Translations under genes and position numbers: made by a program | Shown here: piece after piece, positions 1 to 55,743 of the stretch | How the letters are laid out: each line of letters begins with the position of its first letter | Position numbering within the stretch: the first letter of the stretch is position 1 | The notes under the pieces: model-generated | The model's input: the letters and a program-made list of their open reading frames with translations, nothing else | Databases searched by the model: none | Told to the model about the DNA's origin: nothing | IMG/VR virus record: IMGVR_UViG_3300020201_000023 | Location: 1-55,743 of that record | From: a virus | Lineage: Duplodnaviria > Caudoviricetes | DNA length: 55,743 nt | Direction: 5' to 3' (one strand)

Positions 1-7
1 CTGCGCG

Positions 8-106
8 CCGTGCCCCTCGCGAGCACGGCGCGCAGCACGGCGACGGTCGGCCGCTCCGCGCGTATCTCGTCGGCGATGGCGTCGGCCTGCGCCTGCACTG
101 CGCGGC
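8..106. repeat. Terminal direct repeat, left copy (99 bp); circular assembly overlap
   Basis: ccgtgcccctcgc...gcactgcgcggc is identical to 55634-55732, and an ORF reads through the junction. Confidence 0.93.
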
Positions 107-344
107 TCCATGCGTCGGAGCCGGCCCACCGTTCGGCGGCGGTAGACGCGCCGCGCATCCTCGCGACGGCGGCGGCGATCGGCCAGTCGTCGGCACGCGG
201 ACCGGACCACGGCGCGTCGGACGCCTTGCGCTCGTCGTCGTCGAGGCGCGCTACTCGAGCGACGCGCGCTAGCCACACGCGGTCGAGCATGACGACAGGG
301 CGCGGCGGCGTGGCGAGCGTCGGCGAGAAGGGCGGCGGTGTCAT
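8..344 (-). CDS. Hypothetical protein, 5' part (continues across the circular junction to 55518)
   Basis: ATG at 344 overlaps the MTase stop (ATGA). MTPPPFSPT... runs in frame into VQAQADAIADEIRAERP of ORF 55518-55724. Confidence 0.7.
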
Positions 345-16514: not shown

Positions 16515-17057
16515 ATGACCAATACCAAGAAGATCCTTTCGACGAACGCCAAGAACGCAGCGCGGCGCGCGGCTCGTGGCGCAGCAAAGCAAAAACGACT
16601 CTCTCAGCAGGAAGAACAGTGGAGGGAAGCGGCTCGACGCCGTGGTGAGCATTTCGTGCTCGTGGCCAATGTCGAGGCCGTGACCGTGACCGAGAAGACC
16701 GTCGCGCCCATGAAGCCGCGGGCGCGGGCAGCGCTGGTCAAAGCGCTGGTGACTGAGACGGCGCACGAACTCGCGCCGGGCGCAACGGCACGCGTGATCG
16801 CGAAGCGGATCGCGAAACAGTCCAGCGCCTTCCGCACGGCCCTCGCCGCCGCGCTGAACATCGCATTGCCCGCGAATGCGACGGCGCGCGCGAACGCCGC
16901 GACGCTGGCTCAGGCAGCGCTCGTCGCTGTCATCGGGGGGCGGAAGAACGCTGACCTCCTCGCGCTGGTGCTGGTGCAGGGCGCGACGCTGGCTCAGCTC
17001 GTCAAGCTGTCGAACGCGACGGCGACACCTATCGGATCGTCAAGCGCTGACCTCTGA
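16515..17057 (+). CDS. Basic Ala-rich hypothetical protein
   Basis: RBS GGAGAAG before MTNTKK. Confidence 0.65.
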   Translation: MTNTKKILSTNAKNAARRAARGAAKQKRLSQQEEQWREAARRRGEHFVLVANVEAVTVTEKTVAPMKPRARAALVKALVTETAHELAPGATARVIAKRIAKQSSAFRTALAAALNIALPANATARANAATLAQAALVAVIGGRKNADLLALVLVQGATLAQLVKLSNATATPIGSSSADL

Positions 17058-17107
17058 CGCAGGCAGGGCGCATCCCACCGGGTGCGCCTATGCGTGCGGC
17101 AGACGGC
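17053..17107 (+). repeat. 55-bp intergenic hairpin repeat, copy 1
   Basis: Identical to 17354-17408; folds as a long imperfect stem-loop. Confidence 0.9.
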
Positions 17108-17353: not shown

Positions 17354-17408
17354 TCTGACGCAGGCAGGGCGCATCCCACCGGGTGCGCCTATGCGTGCGG
17401 CAGACGGC
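17354..17408 (+). repeat. 55-bp intergenic hairpin repeat, copy 2
   Basis: Identical to 17053-17107. Confidence 0.9.
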
Positions 17409-45192: not shown

Positions 45193-45404
45193 GCTCGCCT
45201 CCACGACGCTGTCAGCGGTTGACGCGCTTGCACGCATCCTCGCCGCTCGGGTCGCCTCCTGCACCGCGTGAGTGCCGGTGGGGTGGTTCGTCGCCCCTCG
45301 CCCGCCGGTCCACCCCCAGGGTAGAGTTATGCCCTAGCCGCGGCGGTATGTCTCGTGTCAGAACGCGCCATCCGTTGCCATCCGTTGCCATCTCATGCCG
45401 CGGG

Positions 45405-45569
45405 CTACTTGCGCGCCTTCCACATCGCGAGCCCCTTTTCGAGCAGATGCCGCACCGCATCCGCCTGCGTGAACTGGATTCCGTGCGCCGACTCCATGCC
45501 GACCCGGTGCGCCTCGATTCGAGAGAGCAGCTCCGCCGATACGCGCACGGTCACTTTTTGGTCGTTCAC
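45405..45569 (-). CDS. Ribbon-helix-helix protein (54 aa, not in the ORF track)
   Basis: Manual translation: MNDQKVTVRVSAELLSRIEAHRVGMESAHGIQFTQADAVRHLLEKGLAMWKARK. Confidence 0.7.
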   Translation of the reverse strand: MNDQKVTVRVSAELLSRIEAHRVGMESAHGIQFTQADAVRHLLEKGLAMWKARK

Positions 45570-45618
45570 TCGCTACCGCCTTTCGCGCATCGTACTACAC
45601 CCGCCGCGCCCGTCCGAT

Positions 45619-45843
45619 TGGTCCGCGCACCCGGTACTTGATCCGGATGCGCGGAGTACTTCCCTTGGTTCGCCTTGCCGCGCCGCGCCTAGCCCGGCCT
45701 TGCCACGCCCAGCCTAGCCCGGCCGCGCCTGGCCATGATTGGTCGCTGGCGGAAGCATTGAACCTCCGCCAGCGGTACTACCCTTGGTTCGCCTTGCCAC
45801 GCCTCGCCAGGCCTCGCCATGCCACACCACGCCAAGCCTCGCC
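45619..45843 (-). ncRNA. Putative guide-RNA block 3: arrays A6 (45789-45843, 11 pentamers) and A7 (45670-45734, 13 pentamers), each followed by a tRNA-like minihelix
   Basis: (GGY-NN)n plus GGCGAACCAAGGG; hairpins at 45740-45774 and 45619-45654. Confidence 0.8.
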
Positions 45844-46346
45844 TAGTCTTTCTTCTCGGGGAGTGCCGCCGGCACATCGACCGCGAGGAATTTGCGCTTG
45901 CGAACGAGCACGCTCAGCGCGCCGATCTTCGCCAACGAGTTCAGTTGCATCGCCGCCGCGCCGGCGTCGAGCTTGCTCCGGTCCACGTTCACGAGCAACG
46001 CCGCGCTCGACTTCATGCCCTTGCGCACGCTGCTCTCGAGTTTGTCGCGCCCGTGCGTGATCTGGTCCACCGGCGACAGGACTTCGTAGCCTTTGCCGGG
46101 CACGCTCTTGATGTCGATGTGGTGCTCGGTGAGCAGCGCGTTGCGCAGCCCGTCCATCTGCGAACAGTAGCGAAGCTCGAGCCGCTGATGGTCGGCTGAC
46201 GTGATGAGCTCGTCCGGCTTGGGCGTCCTGATCCGCAGTTGCGACCTCAGCCATTCGTGCGTGTAGATCGTCCCCGGCGAATGGTCGCCTTCGATGATGA
46301 TCTTCGCCACCGCAAGATAGTCCGGATAGAGTTCTGTGTCTGCCAT
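45843..46346 (-). CDS. Accessory protein of the repeat locus (winged-helix-like)
   Basis: RBS AGGAGG. LRNALLTEHHIDIKSVPGKGYEV resembles a wHTH recognition helix plus wing. Flanked by arrays. Confidence 0.75.
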   Translation of the reverse strand: MADTELYPDYLAVAKIIIEGDHSPGTIYTHEWLRSQLRIRTPKPDELITSADHQRLELRYCSQMDGLRNALLTEHHIDIKSVPGKGYEVLSPVDQITHGRDKLESSVRKGMKSSAALLVNVDRSKLDAGAAAMQLNSLAKIGALSVLVRKRKFLAVDVPAALPEKKD

Positions 46347-46377
46347 TCGCCGCCTCCTGTTGATTCGGACCCGTGTC

Positions 46378-46591
46378 CCCTTGGTTCGCCTCGCCAGGCC
46401 GTGCCACGCCTCGCCGCGCCCCGCCTCGCCCCGCCCTGCCGCGCCGTGCCCGGCCGCGCCTTGGCCGCCAGCGGAGGTATCGAGCCTCCGCTGGCGGGTA
46501 CTGCCCTTGGTTCGCCTTGCCTGTCCGCGCCACGCCAGACCTCGCCATGCCGCGCCTCGCCCCGCCGTGCCGAGCCTCGCCCAGCCTAGTC
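46378..46591 (-). ncRNA. Putative guide-RNA block 2: arrays A4 (46512-46586, 15 pentamers) and A5 (46386-46460, 15 pentamers) separated by a minihelix
   Basis: Same unit structure; hairpin at 46462-46496. Confidence 0.8.
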
Positions 46592-47164
46592 CTAGATCAC
46601 CTCGAACCGTCCGAAGCGCGGACGATACTGGCCGATCCCTTCGTATTGCCCCGCCGACTTCGCGTAGTCTCGGAGCTGCTCTTCACTCACCAGCGCCGGG
46701 TCGAAGAAGAGCGGACACGACACTTCCCACTCGGGGAAGACCGCACGCGTGCGCAGCAACGCACCGCCGCCGTTGTTCTTGATCGCGCGCTTGTCGACGT
46801 AGCGGCCTGACGCCCACATCGCCTCCAGCGTGCGCGGCCCATCGTACTTGATGGCGCACTTGTCATCGACGTTCTGGATCGCGCGGTTGACCGTCATGCC
46901 CATCTTCGTCAGCTTCGCGCCGTTGCGAATGCACCGCGTGATGTTCCACCCAGGGATGAAAGGGCCGACCTTGTCGTCGAAGCTCTGCGCCATCGCCATG
47001 CGCCATTCGATGTGCTGGATCTCGAGCTTCTGGTCGTCCGACTTCTTGCGGACGTCGGTGAGCTTTTTCAGCTCGCGCGAGATGGGGTGGAACGGGTCGA
47101 GTCCCACCGTGCCAGTCGGCATCATCGGCGCAGTCCCGCGAATCTTCAGCTGCATGATTTCCAT
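46592..47164 (-). CDS. RAMP / Cas7-like RNA-binding protein (candidate effector)
   Basis: N-terminal strand LKIRGTAPMM, PFIPGWNITRCIRNGA (cf. RAMP PxIPGSSLKGxLR), thumb region RTRAVFPEWEV, C-terminal G-rich loop GIGQYRPRFGRFEV. Confidence 0.8.
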   Translation of the reverse strand: MEIMQLKIRGTAPMMPTGTVGLDPFHPISRELKKLTDVRKKSDDQKLEIQHIEWRMAMAQSFDDKVGPFIPGWNITRCIRNGAKLTKMGMTVNRAIQNVDDKCAIKYDGPRTLEAMWASGRYVDKRAIKNNGGGALLRTRAVFPEWEVSCPLFFDPALVSEEQLRDYAKSAGQYEGIGQYRPRFGRFEVI

Positions 47165-47227
47165 GTGTCGTCTTCCTGTCCGCCCGTGAGGGCCATTGCG
47201 TTGTCCGTCCTACGTCGGCCCCATGGC

Positions 47228-47549
47228 CCCTTGGTTCGCGTTGCCGGGCCGGGCCCCGCCTCGCCAAGCCCGGCCACGCCGAGCCTCGATTGGCCGACGC
47301 GCGGGGTATTGAGCCCCACGCGCCGGGTGCTTCCCTTGGTTCGCCTGGCCAAGCCCGGCCCCGCCATGCCTCGCCACGCCCCGCTGCGCCAAGCCTCGCC
47401 GTGATTGGTCACCACCGCAGGTATTGAGCCCGCGGTGGCGATACTTCCCTTGCCTTGCCACGCCAGGCCCCGCCCGGCCGAGCCGTGCCCCGCCGTGCCC
47501 AGCCCAGCCCAGCCACGCCTCGCCATGCCACGCCGAGCCCTGCCACGCC
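47228..47549 (-). ncRNA. Putative guide-RNA block 1: arrays A1 (47450-47549, 20 pentamers), A2 (47341-47400, 12), A3 (47236-47285, 10) separated by minihelices
   Basis: Strict 5-nt period GGC-NN; hairpins at 47406-47440 and 47291-47325. Confidence 0.8.
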
Positions 47550-47565
47550 TCACTCCGACTCCAAC

Positions 47566-47594
47566 CATCTAGCGCGTCCGCGATGCGCCGTCAA
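47566..47594 (-). promoter_or_regulatory. sigma70-like promoter of the repeat/RAMP locus
   Basis: TTGACG-N17-TAGATG ending 16 bp upstream of the first pentamer. Confidence 0.6.
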
Positions 47595-47607
47595 GCGCGG
47601 CTGCATC

Positions 47608-48657
47608 TTATTTCGCAGATAGTACGACGCGCGCCCGAGGCACCGTGTCCGCCATCCGCCACGCATCGATCTCCGCGCGCACCGCTTCGACCGTCGAAGT
47701 GTGCCGGCGTTTTCGAACCGGCAGCGGGTCGACTTCCCGATCGGCGAGCCGGATGGCCGTGCGGTGCGATACCCGCGCGTAATCGGCGATTGCCTTCCAT
47801 CCGAAGAGATCCGTGAGCGGTCCATGAGACATCGTCGTGTACCTCCGGTCGAGCGGTACCAGCCCGCGCGAATGCAGCCGTGCAAACATCTCGCGCAGCC
47901 CCGAGCTTTGCAGCTCGGCGACGTGCGGCTCCGACACATGGCGGCCGAACACGCGCGAGGCGTGCGCGGCAACCTGCTCCAGTCCCGGCAGGTCGTACGG
48001 CTTGAACATGTCGCCGGCCTCGCGCGCCGGTCGGCCTCGCACTGACACGCGCGCCGCCGGCTTCTGCCGTGTCGGATCCCAGACGCCGCCGCCTTCGTTG
48101 CGCCCCTTGATCGCCGTGTGCGACTGCAACGGCGCGAAGTCGCCCTCGATGCCGAACACCGCCCAGAGCACGACTCGCCGCGCTTGGTCGCCGGTGAGCT
48201 CGAGCGTGGAAGTCGCGATCGTCGCGCACCAGCCCGAGGCGAACACGAGCGCCCAATCGCGTTCGACGAACACGACGCGTTCAGCCGCGCGCTGCCCTGC
48301 GTCGCCTACCGCCGTCGTCGACACGCAGCCGCCCGTTGCGTCGTCGCCAATCTTCCAGCACGACCTCAGCGGCGCCCCGTCGAGTCGCGTGTCGATGACG
48401 GCTTGGAGCGCCTGCCGCACGCCGCGGAACTCCGGGCGCGTGCTCTCTCCGCGCTGCTCGCGGCGCTTCATTGCGATCGCCTCGACGGTCGCGCGGTAGT
48501 TCTCCGCGTCGCACTCGGCGGCGCTCACCTCGCGATACGGAAGCGGAGCGAGCGACTCGGCGAGACGCGTCTCGAGGATGATGGACTCGACGTCGTCGAG
48601 CGCCGCCCCGTCGGTGAGCAGCGCCCGCACGTCCACGACCCATCGCGAGCGCGTCAC
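47608..48657 (-). CDS. Hypothetical protein with C-terminal HTH (possible late regulator)
   Basis: LFGWKAIADYARVSHRTAIRL...LPV...AEIDAW, an excisionase-like HTH; last gene of the replication operon. Confidence 0.6.
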   Translation of the reverse strand: MTRSRWVVDVRALLTDGAALDDVESIILETRLAESLAPLPYREVSAAECDAENYRATVEAIAMKRREQRGESTRPEFRGVRQALQAVIDTRLDGAPLRSCWKIGDDATGGCVSTTAVGDAGQRAAERVVFVERDWALVFASGWCATIATSTLELTGDQARRVVLWAVFGIEGDFAPLQSHTAIKGRNEGGGVWDPTRQKPAARVSVRGRPAREAGDMFKPYDLPGLEQVAAHASRVFGRHVSEPHVAELQSSGLREMFARLHSRGLVPLDRRYTTMSHGPLTDLFGWKAIADYARVSHRTAIRLADREVDPLPVRKRRHTSTVEAVRAEIDAWRMADTVPRARVVLSAK

Positions 48658-55517: not shown

Positions 55518-55732
55518 TCATCCGCGCCCGTGCGCAATCGCCGCCGCGCGCATCGCCAGCCCGGCGACGAGCTCGACGCGCCCGCCTGCCGGCACGCCGC
55601 CTGTCTGCCCCGCGAGCCACGTCAGATCGGCGTCCGTGCCCCTCGCGAGCACGGCGCGCAGCACGGCGACGGTCGGCCGCTCCGCGCGTATCTCGTCGGC
55701 GATGGCGTCGGCCTGCGCCTGCACTGCGCGGC
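55518..55732 (-). CDS. Hypothetical protein, 3' part (starts at 344 across the junction)
   Basis: In frame through the terminal repeat. Confidence 0.7.
55634..55732. repeat. Terminal direct repeat, right copy
   Basis: Identical to 8-106. Confidence 0.93.
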
Positions 55733-55743
55733 GCGTCTACCGC

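What the first reader, a model, noticed from the sequence alone, without database searches (positions are those of the whole stretch)
45619..47594. Candidate non-CRISPR RNA-guided system: solo Cas7/RAMP-like gene embedded in seven (GGC-NN)n pentamer arrays
Seen in sequence, minus strand: promoter TTGACG-N17-TAGATG, arrays A1-A3, a 190-aa gene, arrays A4-A5, a 167-aa gene, arrays A6-A7. There are about 96 pentamers with a nearly invariant GGC/GGT triplet and a free dinucleotide. The arrays share no NN order apart from the 3' constant end. Five end in GGCGAACCAAGGG; A3 has CGCGAACCAAGGG and A1 has GGCAAGGCAAGGG. Slippage microsatellites homogenise, so a fixed 3-of-5 scaffold with 2 variable positions suggests an information carrier. 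Established: the 190-aa protein shows RAMP-superfamily hallmarks (N-terminal strand, PxIPG helix motif, C-terminal G-rich loop), and Cas7-type RAMPs polymerise on guide RNA with a fixed period. I saw no cas1/2/3/5/6/8/10 and no CRISPR array in the genome. Inference: one protomer binds each GGY and displays NN for pairing, giving seven guides, probably for inter-phage competition or gene silencing. From memory this architecture matches the recently reported VIPR (viral interference programmable repeat) systems. I cannot verify that here, so this may be a new member rather than a new class.
Basis: partly seen in the sequence, partly recalled or inferred. Interest (0 to 1): 0.97.

Follow-up and report, generated by a model that had tools for sequence, protein, structure and literature searches.

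The report
Phage VIPR guide-RNA system, seven guides
This phage carries a VIPR system, a CRISPR-like RNA-guided DNA silencer first described in 2026, so it is a new example of a known kind, and its seven guide genes are separated by small hairpins that resemble the top half of a tRNA.

Summary
On the minus strand of 45610-47594 there are seven (GGY-NN)n arrays with 95 units in all (91 GGC, 2 GGT). Each ends in a constant tail. They flank a 190-aa and a 167-aa gene.

It is therefore a new, divergent member of type II-like VIPR, not a new class. This scan has noted VIPR before on other DNA: 536 notes in at least 404 genomes.

I found no natural target and no RNA data.

One feature is not in the main texts I searched. 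Five of the seven tails run into a covarying 12-bp hairpin with an xTCRAxx loop, followed by R-CCA. This looks like a tRNA acceptor/T-arm minihelix. I infer, without showing it, that host RNase P and tRNA 3' enzymes cut the guides out of one long transcript.

The parts
47566..47594 (-). Putative promoter TTGACG-N17-TAGATG upstream of array A1
   Evidence: Read. It is not called by the consensus scan (0 sites). L003 has a TTGACA-type site at the equivalent place. Unverified.
47450..47549 (-). vrRNA array A1: 20 GGC-NN units, the last two being the constant GGCAA GGCAA
47397..47451 (-). A1 tail (AAGGGAAGTAT) plus 12-bp minihelix (stem 47440-47429 / 47421-47410, loop CTCAATA), then A-CCA
   Evidence: Covariance model R1, 68.7 bits. 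Fold z -3.28. Covariation.
47341..47400 (-). vrRNA array A2: 12 units, one of them AGC
47282..47337 (-). A2 tail plus minihelix (loop CTCAATA), then G-CCA
   Evidence: R1, 77.5 bits. z -3.11.
47228..47285 (-). vrRNA array A3 (9 units) plus tail CGCGAACCAAGGG. There is no minihelix; it runs into the vipr leader.
   Evidence: The leader 47165-47240 has no significant fold (z -1.03).
46592..47164 (-). vipr: 190-aa Vipr protein, a lone Cas7-like RAMP
46512..46586 (-). vrRNA array A4: 15 units, starting 6 nt after the vipr stop codon
46452..46508 (-). A4 tail plus minihelix (loop CTCGATA), then G-CCA
   Evidence: R1, 70.2 bits. z -3.47.
46347..46460 (-). vrRNA array A5 (15 units), tail GGCGAACCAAGGGGACACGGGTCC and the vap1 leader. 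No minihelix.
   Evidence: The same short tail occurs in L003. Leader z +0.99.
45843..46346 (-). vap1-like accessory gene, 167 aa
   Evidence: phrog_5926, E 4.8e-16. This is the family of the SUSP1 gene directly after vipr (E 1.1e-75). BLASTP to that gene gives 29% over 52 aa, E 8e-6. The AF2 model (pLDDT 81.9) has only weak winged-helix matches (best E 0.11).
45789..45843 (-). vrRNA array A6: 11 units, overlapping the last base of the vap1 stop codon
45731..45785 (-). A6 tail plus minihelix (loop TTCAATG), then A-CCA
   Evidence: R1, 64.7 bits. z -4.37.
45670..45734 (-). vrRNA array A7: 13 units
   Evidence: In a contig of another sample that shares the identical flank, 17 of 19 variable positions here are NN positions.
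45610..45666 (-). A7 tail plus minihelix (8-nt loop ATCAAGTA), then A-CCA
   Evidence: R1, 62.6 bits. z -4.06. L026 has an identical helix.

Best explanation
The locus is a VIPR (Viral Interference Programmable Repeat) system of the type II kind, meaning a vipr plus vap1 gene pair like that of phage SUSP1. It sits in a complete 55.7-kb, 68.8% G+C phage genome from a metagenome.

Shown here:
- The protein is a Vipr homologue with a Cas7/Csm3-like fold.
- The second gene belongs to the vap1 family.
- Seven same-strand GGY/NN arrays, each with a constant tail, fill the three intergenic spaces.
- A related phage has the same layout with different guides.

Taken from the preprints on SUSP1, not tested here:
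- One Vipr protomer binds each repeat, holds GGY and presents NN.
- The NN dinucleotides pair with double-stranded DNA under a one-base-skip rule (xNN).
- Binding silences transcription of competing mobile elements, and vap1 strengthens the effect.

Inferred here:
- The arrays lie 5-6 nt from the preceding element, with no room for promoters and no terminators. I therefore read them as one long transcript that must be cut.
- The cutting signals would be the five 12-bp hairpins followed by R-CCA. They mimic a tRNA acceptor/T-arm minihelix. RNase P would cut at their 5' side and the tRNA 3'-end enzymes at their 3' side. I put this processing step at about 0.5-0.55.
- The NN composition suggests that the guides match coding sequences in the sense orientation, with the skipped base at the wobble position.
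For: Membership:
- phmmer against the PDB gives 36pp_D 'SUSP1 Vipr protein', E 4.6e-24, over the full length. BLASTP to the SUSP1 gene gives 29% over 190 aa, E 2e-31.
- phrog_4652 matches both proteins.
- The family is large: 1955 representative clusters at E <= 0.001.
- vap1: phrog_5926 matches the window gene (E 4.8e-16) and SUSP1 vap1 (E 1.1e-75).

Arrays:
- 93 of 95 units are GGY, far beyond chance.
- 9 of 9 fetched homologue loci have same-strand arrays next to the gene.
- In the other direction, a scan for the tail motif alone returned 24 loci, and 17 of them encode a Vipr homologue by tblastn.
- L003, whose Vipr is 73% identical, has the same layout of array, vipr, arrays, vap1, array, with the same tails but different NN.

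Guide variability: in a contig from another sample with an identical 82-nt flank, 17 of the 19 variable positions inside A7 are NN positions.

Self-targeting: no match reaches 80% NN identity (best 0.75, not above shuffled guides). The paper reports the same for its systems (section 27).

Context: a phage with small terminase, portal, protease, major head, DnaB and RecT genes. No Cas1, no Pfam RAMPs hit, and no CRISPR-like repeat family.

Minihelix:
- In 11 copies (window 5, L003 2, L026 4) the 12-bp helix is paired in 96.2% of cells, and 10 of 12 pairs change on both sides. 0 of 500 shuffles reach this, and slid controls reach 32-51%.
- R-CCA follows the helix in 10 of 11 copies.
- The folds have z -3.1 to -4.4.
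- L024 has the same tail, followed by elements with the canonical T arm GGTTCGATTCC. One of them is a 7-bp acceptor stem, 5-bp T stem, G and CCA.

Coding signature: the 87 NN fit sense codon positions 1-2 best, +14.8 bits over genome dinucleotides. All other phases score -3 to -54 bits.
Against: - No RNA evidence. No RNA run is listed for this DNA, so transcription, processing and Vipr binding are untested.
- No natural target was found, so the biological role rests on analogy.
- The proposed promoter fails the consensus scan.
- Both SUSP1 residues that contact the first G differ here: H17 becomes T17 and D177 becomes Q179. The preprint reports that D177A abolishes silencing in SUSP1. This T/Q pair occurs in only 3 of 92 aligned family members, all in this clade. 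The arrays are nevertheless intact GGC.
- The type II assignment rests on vap1 homology and similarity to SUSP1, not on the paper's phylogeny, which is in supplements I could not open.
- Against the tRNA-like reading: no Rfam family, tRNA included, matches the window locus at E <= 10, and ARAGORN finds nothing. The first loop position is U in only 1 of 11 copies, where a T-loop needs U54. Loops are 6-8 nt. One copy has CCG in place of CCA. The L024 match to mascRNA-menRNA is below threshold (25.9 bits against 42.5, E 0.17).
Confidence: 0.9

Rival explanations
1. It is the same VIPR system, but the hairpin is not a cutting signal. It stays on the mature vrRNA as a structured 3' cap, the counterpart of the SUSP1 pseudoknot. 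The 3' end is made at or near CCA, and that end protects the RNA from exonucleases.
For: [quoted passage not shown] Here the hairpin sits at the same place after the tail, and its helix is conserved by covariation. Other loci with the same tail carry other hairpins: L018 has a 10-bp stem with a GCAA loop, and L031/L032 have a terminator hairpin.
Against: A3 and A5 have the constant tail but no hairpin. L003 shows the same rule. A cap that two of seven guides lack is unlikely to be essential. A 12-bp helix with R-CCA is, from established knowledge of bacterial RNase P model substrates (recalled, not tested here), a good RNase P substrate, so it would probably be cut off unless protected.
Confidence: 0.3
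2. The arrays are slippage-prone simple repeats, G-quadruplex-prone DNA or a remnant without a guide function, and the RAMP-like gene is unrelated to them.
For: There is no RNA or binding data for this locus. (GGNNN)n could in principle form two-tetrad quadruplexes (inference only).
Against: The scaffold is fixed while NN vary. Arrays co-occur with vipr homologues in 9 of 9 loci, and the tail motif leads back to vipr in 17 of 24 loci. The tails and helices are conserved across three records. The published system with the same parts was shown to work.
Confidence: 0.03
3. It is a degenerate or minimal CRISPR-Cas effector: a solo Cas7 of type III, IV or VII that uses crRNAs from an array elsewhere.
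For: The closest solved folds in the structure library are Csm3, Cmr4 and type VII Cas7.
Against: By sequence it matches the SUSP1 Vipr (E 4.6e-24). It gives no hit to the Pfam RAMPs model or to Cas1, and the complete genome has no CRISPR-like repeat family. It is flanked by GGY/NN arrays instead.
Confidence: 0.01

Closest known systems
Type II VIPR of Escherichia phage SUSP1 (Vipr + vap1 + vrRNAs; bioRxiv 10.64898/2026.04.26.720920 and .720927; PDB 36pp)
   Same: The Vipr protein is homologous over its full length. The second gene is in the same PHROG as vap1. Both have GGY/NN repeats followed by a constant tail that shares a GGG-NAGTA-like motif. Both sit in phage genomes. Neither shows a self-target.
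   Different: Identity is only 29%. GGC replaces GGT as the scaffold (91 of 95 units). There are seven guides against four in SUSP1. Arrays also lie between vipr and vap1, whereas in SUSP1 the two genes are 2 nt apart. Arrays reach 20 units, against the 9-16 reported. The tail ends in a 12-bp hairpin plus R-CCA instead of a pseudoknot. The residues that contact the first G are T and Q instead of H and D.
Ribozyme-interspersed and staggered vrRNA arrays of other VIPR types (paper 720920, Results and legends of figs. S18-S19, seen)
   Same: Several vrRNAs lie head to tail in one transcript, with a built-in device that marks where one ends and the next begins.
   Different: In those arrays the device is a hammerhead ribozyme (types I and V) or overlapping ends. 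Here no Rfam ribozyme matches at E <= 10, and the punctuation is a tRNA-like minihelix that would need host enzymes.
tRNA-like processing signals: the mascRNA/MALAT1 3' element, and synthetic polycistronic tRNA-gRNA arrays (recalled, not from a call)
   Same: A tRNA-shaped element inside a longer RNA recruits RNase P and the tRNA 3' enzymes to release the neighbouring RNAs. The L024 element's best Rfam match is mascRNA-menRNA.
   Different: That match is below threshold. The window's elements are only the acceptor/T-arm half, with an imperfect T loop. Cleavage has not been shown.
CRISPR-Cas class 1 Cas7 backbone (Csm3, Cmr4)
   Different: There is no CRISPR array and no cas1. The period is 5 nt, with three bases sequestered. 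Targets are read by a gapped code.

Membership tests
VIPR system | A Vipr protein: a homologue of described Vipr proteins with a RAMP fold (RRM core, G-rich loop, thumb) | tested here: met
VIPR system | Tandem GGY/NN (YNNGG) repeats, at least 4 units, next to vipr on the same strand | tested here: met
   Seven arrays of 9-20 units; 93 of 95 units are GGY. Chance controls.
VIPR system | An invariant 3' tail after the repeat tract | tested here: met
   GGC(G/A)A(A/G)(C/G)CAAGGG at all seven ends. It is shared with L003, L026 and 22 further loci found by the motif. The structure after it differs from the SUSP1 pseudoknot.
VIPR system | A minimal locus with a vap accessory gene and no cas genes or CRISPR array | tested here: met
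   vap1-family gene (phrog_5926). Cas1 and Pfam RAMPs each give 0 hits, and there is no CRISPR-like repeat family. Other cas families were not searched one by one.
VIPR system | vrRNAs are expressed and co-purify with Vipr | not testable with these tools
   No RNA run is listed for this DNA. This needs small-RNA sequencing and a pull-down.
VIPR system | Guides match natural targets under the one-base-skip rule (at least 80% NN match), with no self-target | tested here: inconclusive
   No self-target at 80% or more. No target found: exact scans of IMG/VR for 6 of 7 guides gave 0 hits. A5 with up to 3 mismatches gave 0 in 4 virus records, 5 genomes and 401 genomes of one phylum. The host is unknown and the searches were narrow.
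VIPR type II (SUSP1 / P. fulva kind) | Position in the Vipr phylogeny, together with vap1 as the accessory gene | tested here: inconclusive
   vap1 homology is met, and SUSP1-clade and Pseudomonas phages are among 130 tblastn hits. I could not reproduce the type tree: the classification data are in supplements that were closed.
tRNA-like minihelix (RNase P model substrate) | A 12-bp coaxial acceptor plus T stem | tested here: met
   The helix is 12 bp in 11 of 11 copies, 96.2% of cells are paired, and 10 of 12 pairs covary.
tRNA-like minihelix (RNase P model substrate) | A 3' R-CCA directly after the helix | tested here: met
   10 of 11 copies have A or G followed by CCA; one (L026d) has CCG.
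tRNA-like minihelix (RNase P model substrate) | A 7-nt T loop, U54-U55-C56-R57-A58 | tested here: inconclusive
   TCRA is kept in 10 of 11 copies, but the first position is U in only 1 of 11, and loops are 6-8 nt. L024 has the canonical TTCGATT.
tRNA-like minihelix (RNase P model substrate) | Recognised by tRNA or tRNA-like covariance models or gene finders | tested here: not met
   No Rfam match at E <= 10 in the window locus. L024 matches mascRNA-menRNA only below threshold (25.9 against 42.5 bits). ARAGORN finds none. I therefore do not file the hairpins as tRNA-like family members; the claim is that they may work like one.
tRNA-like minihelix (RNase P model substrate) | Cleaved by RNase P at the 5' base of the helix | not testable with these tools
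   This needs an in vitro RNase P assay or mapping of RNA ends.
CRISPR-Cas (class 1) | A CRISPR repeat-spacer array and an adaptation module (cas1/cas2) | tested here: not met
   No such repeat family, and Cas1 gives 0 hits in a genome rated 100% complete.

The most novel reading that the evidence does not exclude
In this clade (the window, the 198-kb phage behind L003, and L026), and in a fuller form in L024, VIPR guide arrays are punctuated by tRNA-like elements. The phage would then borrow the host's RNase P and tRNA 3'-end machinery to cut one long transcript into seven guides. That would be a natural counterpart of engineered tRNA-gRNA arrays, and a third way of making vrRNAs beside separate units or staggered ends and hammerhead ribozymes.

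Two further points, both ideas only. The two hairpin-less guides, A3 and A5, sit in the 5' leaders of vipr and vap1, where Vipr binding could feed back on its own translation. The same hairpin type serves two very different Vipr cassettes (28.6% identical) at one genomic site.
Probability: 0.5. Interest if true: 0.6.

Novelty: new member of a known kind. Interest (0 to 1): 0.4.

Why it matters
The class is already published, so there is no new class here. The value lies in three smaller things.

- It is a divergent, high-G+C member whose clade has no NCBI source among its 7 listed relatives. It has seven guides and arrays in every intergenic space, which widens the known layouts.
- The covarying 12-bp hairpin with R-CCA gives a concrete, cheap test of how multi-guide vrRNA transcripts are matured. 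The main texts I searched do not address this for type II. If host tRNA enzymes do the cutting, it is also a compact natural design for multiplexed guides.
- The T17/Q179 pair replaces two residues that contact the first G in SUSP1, one of which is essential there. This is a natural variant for studying how Vipr reads GGY.

Tried and rejected
**Targets**
- Exact one-base-skip scans of IMG/VR gave 0 hits each for A5, A4, A7, the 3' twelve NN of A1, A2 and A6. A3 was not scanned: 16 specified bases are too few.
- A5 with up to 3 mismatches gave 0 hits in four virus records, five genomes and 401 genomes of one phylum. I did not repeat the phylum search for the other guides.
- The window's guides against all held loci gave no match of 80% or more.
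- I ran 78 arrays from other loci against the window. Five short ones reached 0.8, but none of those five exceeded its shuffled guides. Two lower-scoring arrays exceeded all 30 shuffles, which I take as chance.

**Host:** not identified. There is no tRNA gene, no close phage relative, and the portal has only distant hits.

**Expression:** no RNA holder is listed.

**Relatives**
- The first genome-contig scan with the single protein found none.
- Alignments A1 and A2 were too diverse for the search for related loci. A 4-sequence alignment gave 7 loci.

**Pseudoknot:** I looked by eye for pairing between the tail or 3' flank and the hairpin loop, as in SUSP1. No pairing was kept across copies, so I dropped it.

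**Ribozymes:** none at E <= 10.

**vap1 fold:** only weak winged-helix matches (best E 0.11). This is consistent with the paper's 'WH-like' description but is not a result on its own.

**AlaRS-type G3:U70 in the helix:** present in 4 of 11 copies only, so rejected.

**Supplements:** they were closed. The paper's tables of the 667 systems, the type tree and the supplementary figures (beyond their legends) may already hold this clade or its tail structure.

**Literature searches behind 'not in the main texts':** the phrase search; 'vrRNA' plus 'tRNA', which returned one paper without tRNA-like VIPR content; and word finds for tRNA, RNase and minihelix in the three VIPR preprints.
Full report
**What is there**

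Read on the minus strand, window 47594-45610 holds, in order:
- a TTGACG-N17-TAGATG site
- arrays A1, A2 and A3
- a 190-aa gene (47164-46592)
- arrays A4 and A5
- a 167-aa gene (46346-45843)
- arrays A6 and A7

The arrays have 20, 12, 9, 15, 15, 11 and 13 pentamers. That is 95 units: 91 GGC, 2 GGT, 1 AGC and 1 GGA. Every array ends in GGC(G/A)A(A/G)(C/G)CAAGGG, and ACCAAGGG occurs nowhere else in the window.

Elsewhere in the 55.7-kb window only four runs, each with four conforming units, exist. Markov shuffles never exceeded six.

The promoter is the weak point. It is in the sequence, but the consensus scan found no promoter-like or terminator-like site in 45200-47900.

**What it is**

A full-text search found it in 5 papers, 3 of them listed. 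I read:
- the Results and four methods sections of bioRxiv 10.64898/2026.04.26.720920
- sections 5 and 6 of 10.64898/2026.04.26.720927
- one methods section and passages of 10.64898/2026.10.15.759431

Together they define VIPR as a lone RAMP (Vipr), an accessory gene (vap), and vrRNAs made of 9-16 GGY/NN repeats with an invariant 3' tail, mostly in phages. One protomer binds each repeat, and the NN read double-stranded DNA with one skipped base.

The 190-aa protein has no Pfam hit. It does match the solved 'SUSP1 Vipr protein' (36pp_D) at E 4.6e-24 over residues 1-189. It is 29% identical to the SUSP1 gene product (E 2e-31) and falls in phrog_4652 with it.

An exhaustive profile-free search found 1955 representative clusters at E <= 0.001. 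The nearest outside its own cluster is 45% identical.

The 167-aa protein is in phrog_5926 (E 4.8e-16). That is the family of the SUSP1 gene that directly follows vipr (E 1.1e-75), which the paper calls vap1. Direct BLASTP is weak: 29% over 52 aa, E 8e-6. Its model (pLDDT 81.9) gives only weak winged-helix matches, best E 0.11.

**Co-occurrence, tested both ways**

All 9 loci fetched through the protein have GGY/NN arrays on the gene's strand beside it. These are SUSP1, one IMG/VR relative and seven species genomes.

A scan for the tail motif alone returned 8 viral and 16 metagenome loci. Of these 24, 17 encode a Vipr homologue by tblastn. The other 7 are mostly short contigs. One of them, L024, carries a more distant Vipr-like gene seen by eye.

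L003 has a Vipr 73% identical and a vap1 56% identical, and comes from a 198-kb phage record with terminal repeats. It repeats the window's unusual layout: one array before vipr, three between vipr and vap1, and one after. The tails are the same and the NN are unrelated.

**Context**

The window is a whole virus record rated 100% complete, with 68.8% G+C. It carries small terminase, portal, protease, major head, DnaB and RecT genes. It has no tRNA gene and no close relative among deposited phages.

There is no Cas1, no hit to the Pfam RAMPs model, and no CRISPR-like repeat family.

**Guides**

Without the constant last units, the seven guides carry 18, 11, 8, 14, 14, 10 and 12 dinucleotides.

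No guide matches the phage's own genome at 80% (best 0.75, within shuffled-guide nulls). The paper reports the same for its systems.

The first variable base is G in 47 of 95 units, and the second is A or T in 54 of 95. Scored against this phage's own codon statistics, the 87 NN fit sense codon positions 1-2 best, +14.8 bits over genome dinucleotides, while every other phase or strand scores -3 to -54 bits. This agrees with the paper's finding that skipped bases fall on wobble positions. It suggests targets in coding sequence.

Laying contigs of other metagenome runs on the locus showed one contig with an identical 82-nt downstream flank whose A7 differs. Of the 19 variable positions inside A7, 17 are NN positions. 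Any array laid on another array would show this pattern, so only the shared flank makes it evidence of guide turnover.

I could not name a target (see Tried and rejected).

**The hairpins**

After the tails of A1, A2, A4, A6 and A7 comes NAGYAY(N), then a hairpin, then A/G-CCA-A. The next array starts 5-6 nt later.

I aligned these five with two copies from L003 and four from L026. The helix is 12 bp in all 11. It is paired in 96.2% of cells, and 10 of 12 pairs change on both sides. No shuffle in 500 reaches this, and slid controls give 32-51%.

Each window copy folds better than its shuffles, z -3.1 to -4.4.

A covariance model built from the 11 finds only those 11 at 62-78 bits in 231.5 kb of held sequence. 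The next best hit scores 23 bits.

Loops are 6-8 nt. TCRA is kept in 10 of 11 copies, and R-CCA follows in 10 of 11.

A3 and A5 precede the two genes. They keep the tail but have no hairpin and no significant fold. L003 follows the same rule.

L024 has another Vipr subtype with the same tail. There the arrays are separated by fuller tRNA-like elements with GGTTCGATTCC T arms. One has a 7-bp acceptor stem, a 5-bp T stem, G and CCA. Its best Rfam match is mascRNA-menRNA, but below threshold (25.9 against 42.5 bits, E 0.17).

The case against is real:
- The window's hairpins match no Rfam family at E <= 10.
- ARAGORN calls nothing.
- The loop's first base is U in only one copy.

I therefore do not file them as tRNA-like family members. 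I propose only that they work like RNase P minihelix substrates. That 12-bp helices with 3' R-CCA are such substrates is recalled knowledge, not a call.

The word 'tRNA' does not occur in the main text of the three VIPR preprints. The one paper that holds both 'vrRNA' and 'tRNA' does not link them. The supplements were closed.

**How it most likely works**

Shown: the parts and their conservation.

From the literature on SUSP1: Vipr polymerises on the repeats, one protomer each (9-20 per guide here). It hides GGY and presents NN. The complex binds DNA that matches xNN and blocks transcription, and vap1 enhances this.

Inferred: there is one transcript from a site upstream of A1. RNase P cuts at the 5' base of each hairpin, and tRNA 3' processing acts after CCA, releasing the guides (about 0.5-0.55). 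The main alternative is that the hairpin stays on as a 3' cap like the SUSP1 pseudoknot (about 0.3).

**Protein details**

The SUSP1 contacts R138, R179 and K33 correspond to R140, R181 and K33 here. W178 is Y180. The two contacts to the first G, H17 and D177, are T17 and Q179. Among 92 aligned family members the pair is H/D in 60 and T/Q in 3, all of them in this clade.

**Verdict**

This is a genuine VIPR locus of the SUSP1-like (vipr-vap1) kind. It is a new member of a known kind, and this scan has noted the kind many times before on other DNA (536 notes in at least 404 genomes).

The hairpin punctuation, the arrays between the two genes, and the altered G-contact pair are the parts worth a specialist's time.

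Noticed in passing
window 1-117 and 55627-55743: The two ends of the window repeat each other: 8-106 is identical to 55634-55732, offset 55626. The genome is therefore probably circular or terminally redundant, although the record is classed 'linear'.
   Followed up: partly
window 47553-47700 joined to 45551-45734 (contig of run X4): One 360-nt contig, depth 2.8, joins the promoter region to a single A7-like array with 18 nt between, and without vipr, vap1 or the other six arrays. It may be a relative that carries only a solo guide, like the VIPR-null phages of the October 2026 preprint, or it may be an assembly collapse across repeats.
   Followed up: partly
L026 1850-3731 (minus strand): This metagenome contig shares the small ribbon-helix-helix-like gene after the arrays (53% identical) and an A7 hairpin identical to the window's. 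Its Vipr, however, is only 28.6% identical (phrog_4652, E 8e-13) and its second gene has no PHROG. Two different VIPR cassettes appear to sit at one site of related phages, using the same tail and hairpin.
   Followed up: partly
L024 990-1300 (minus strand): Three tRNA-like elements with canonical T arms separate the vrRNA arrays. The best Rfam match is mascRNA-menRNA, below threshold.
   Followed up: partly
window 45405-45569 (minus strand): A 54-aa gene directly after the last hairpin weakly matches a PHROG of transcriptional repressors (phrog_4738, E 2e-4). It is conserved after the arrays in L026. Whether it belongs to the system is unknown.
   Followed up: no
window 45672-45724: A7 contains an imperfect internal duplication of five units: period 25, 89% matches. 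This hints that guides can grow by duplicating blocks of units.
   Followed up: no
window 17053-17107 and 17354-17408: Two identical 55-nt repeats lie 301 nt apart (family D19), as another note of this scan also says.
   Followed up: no
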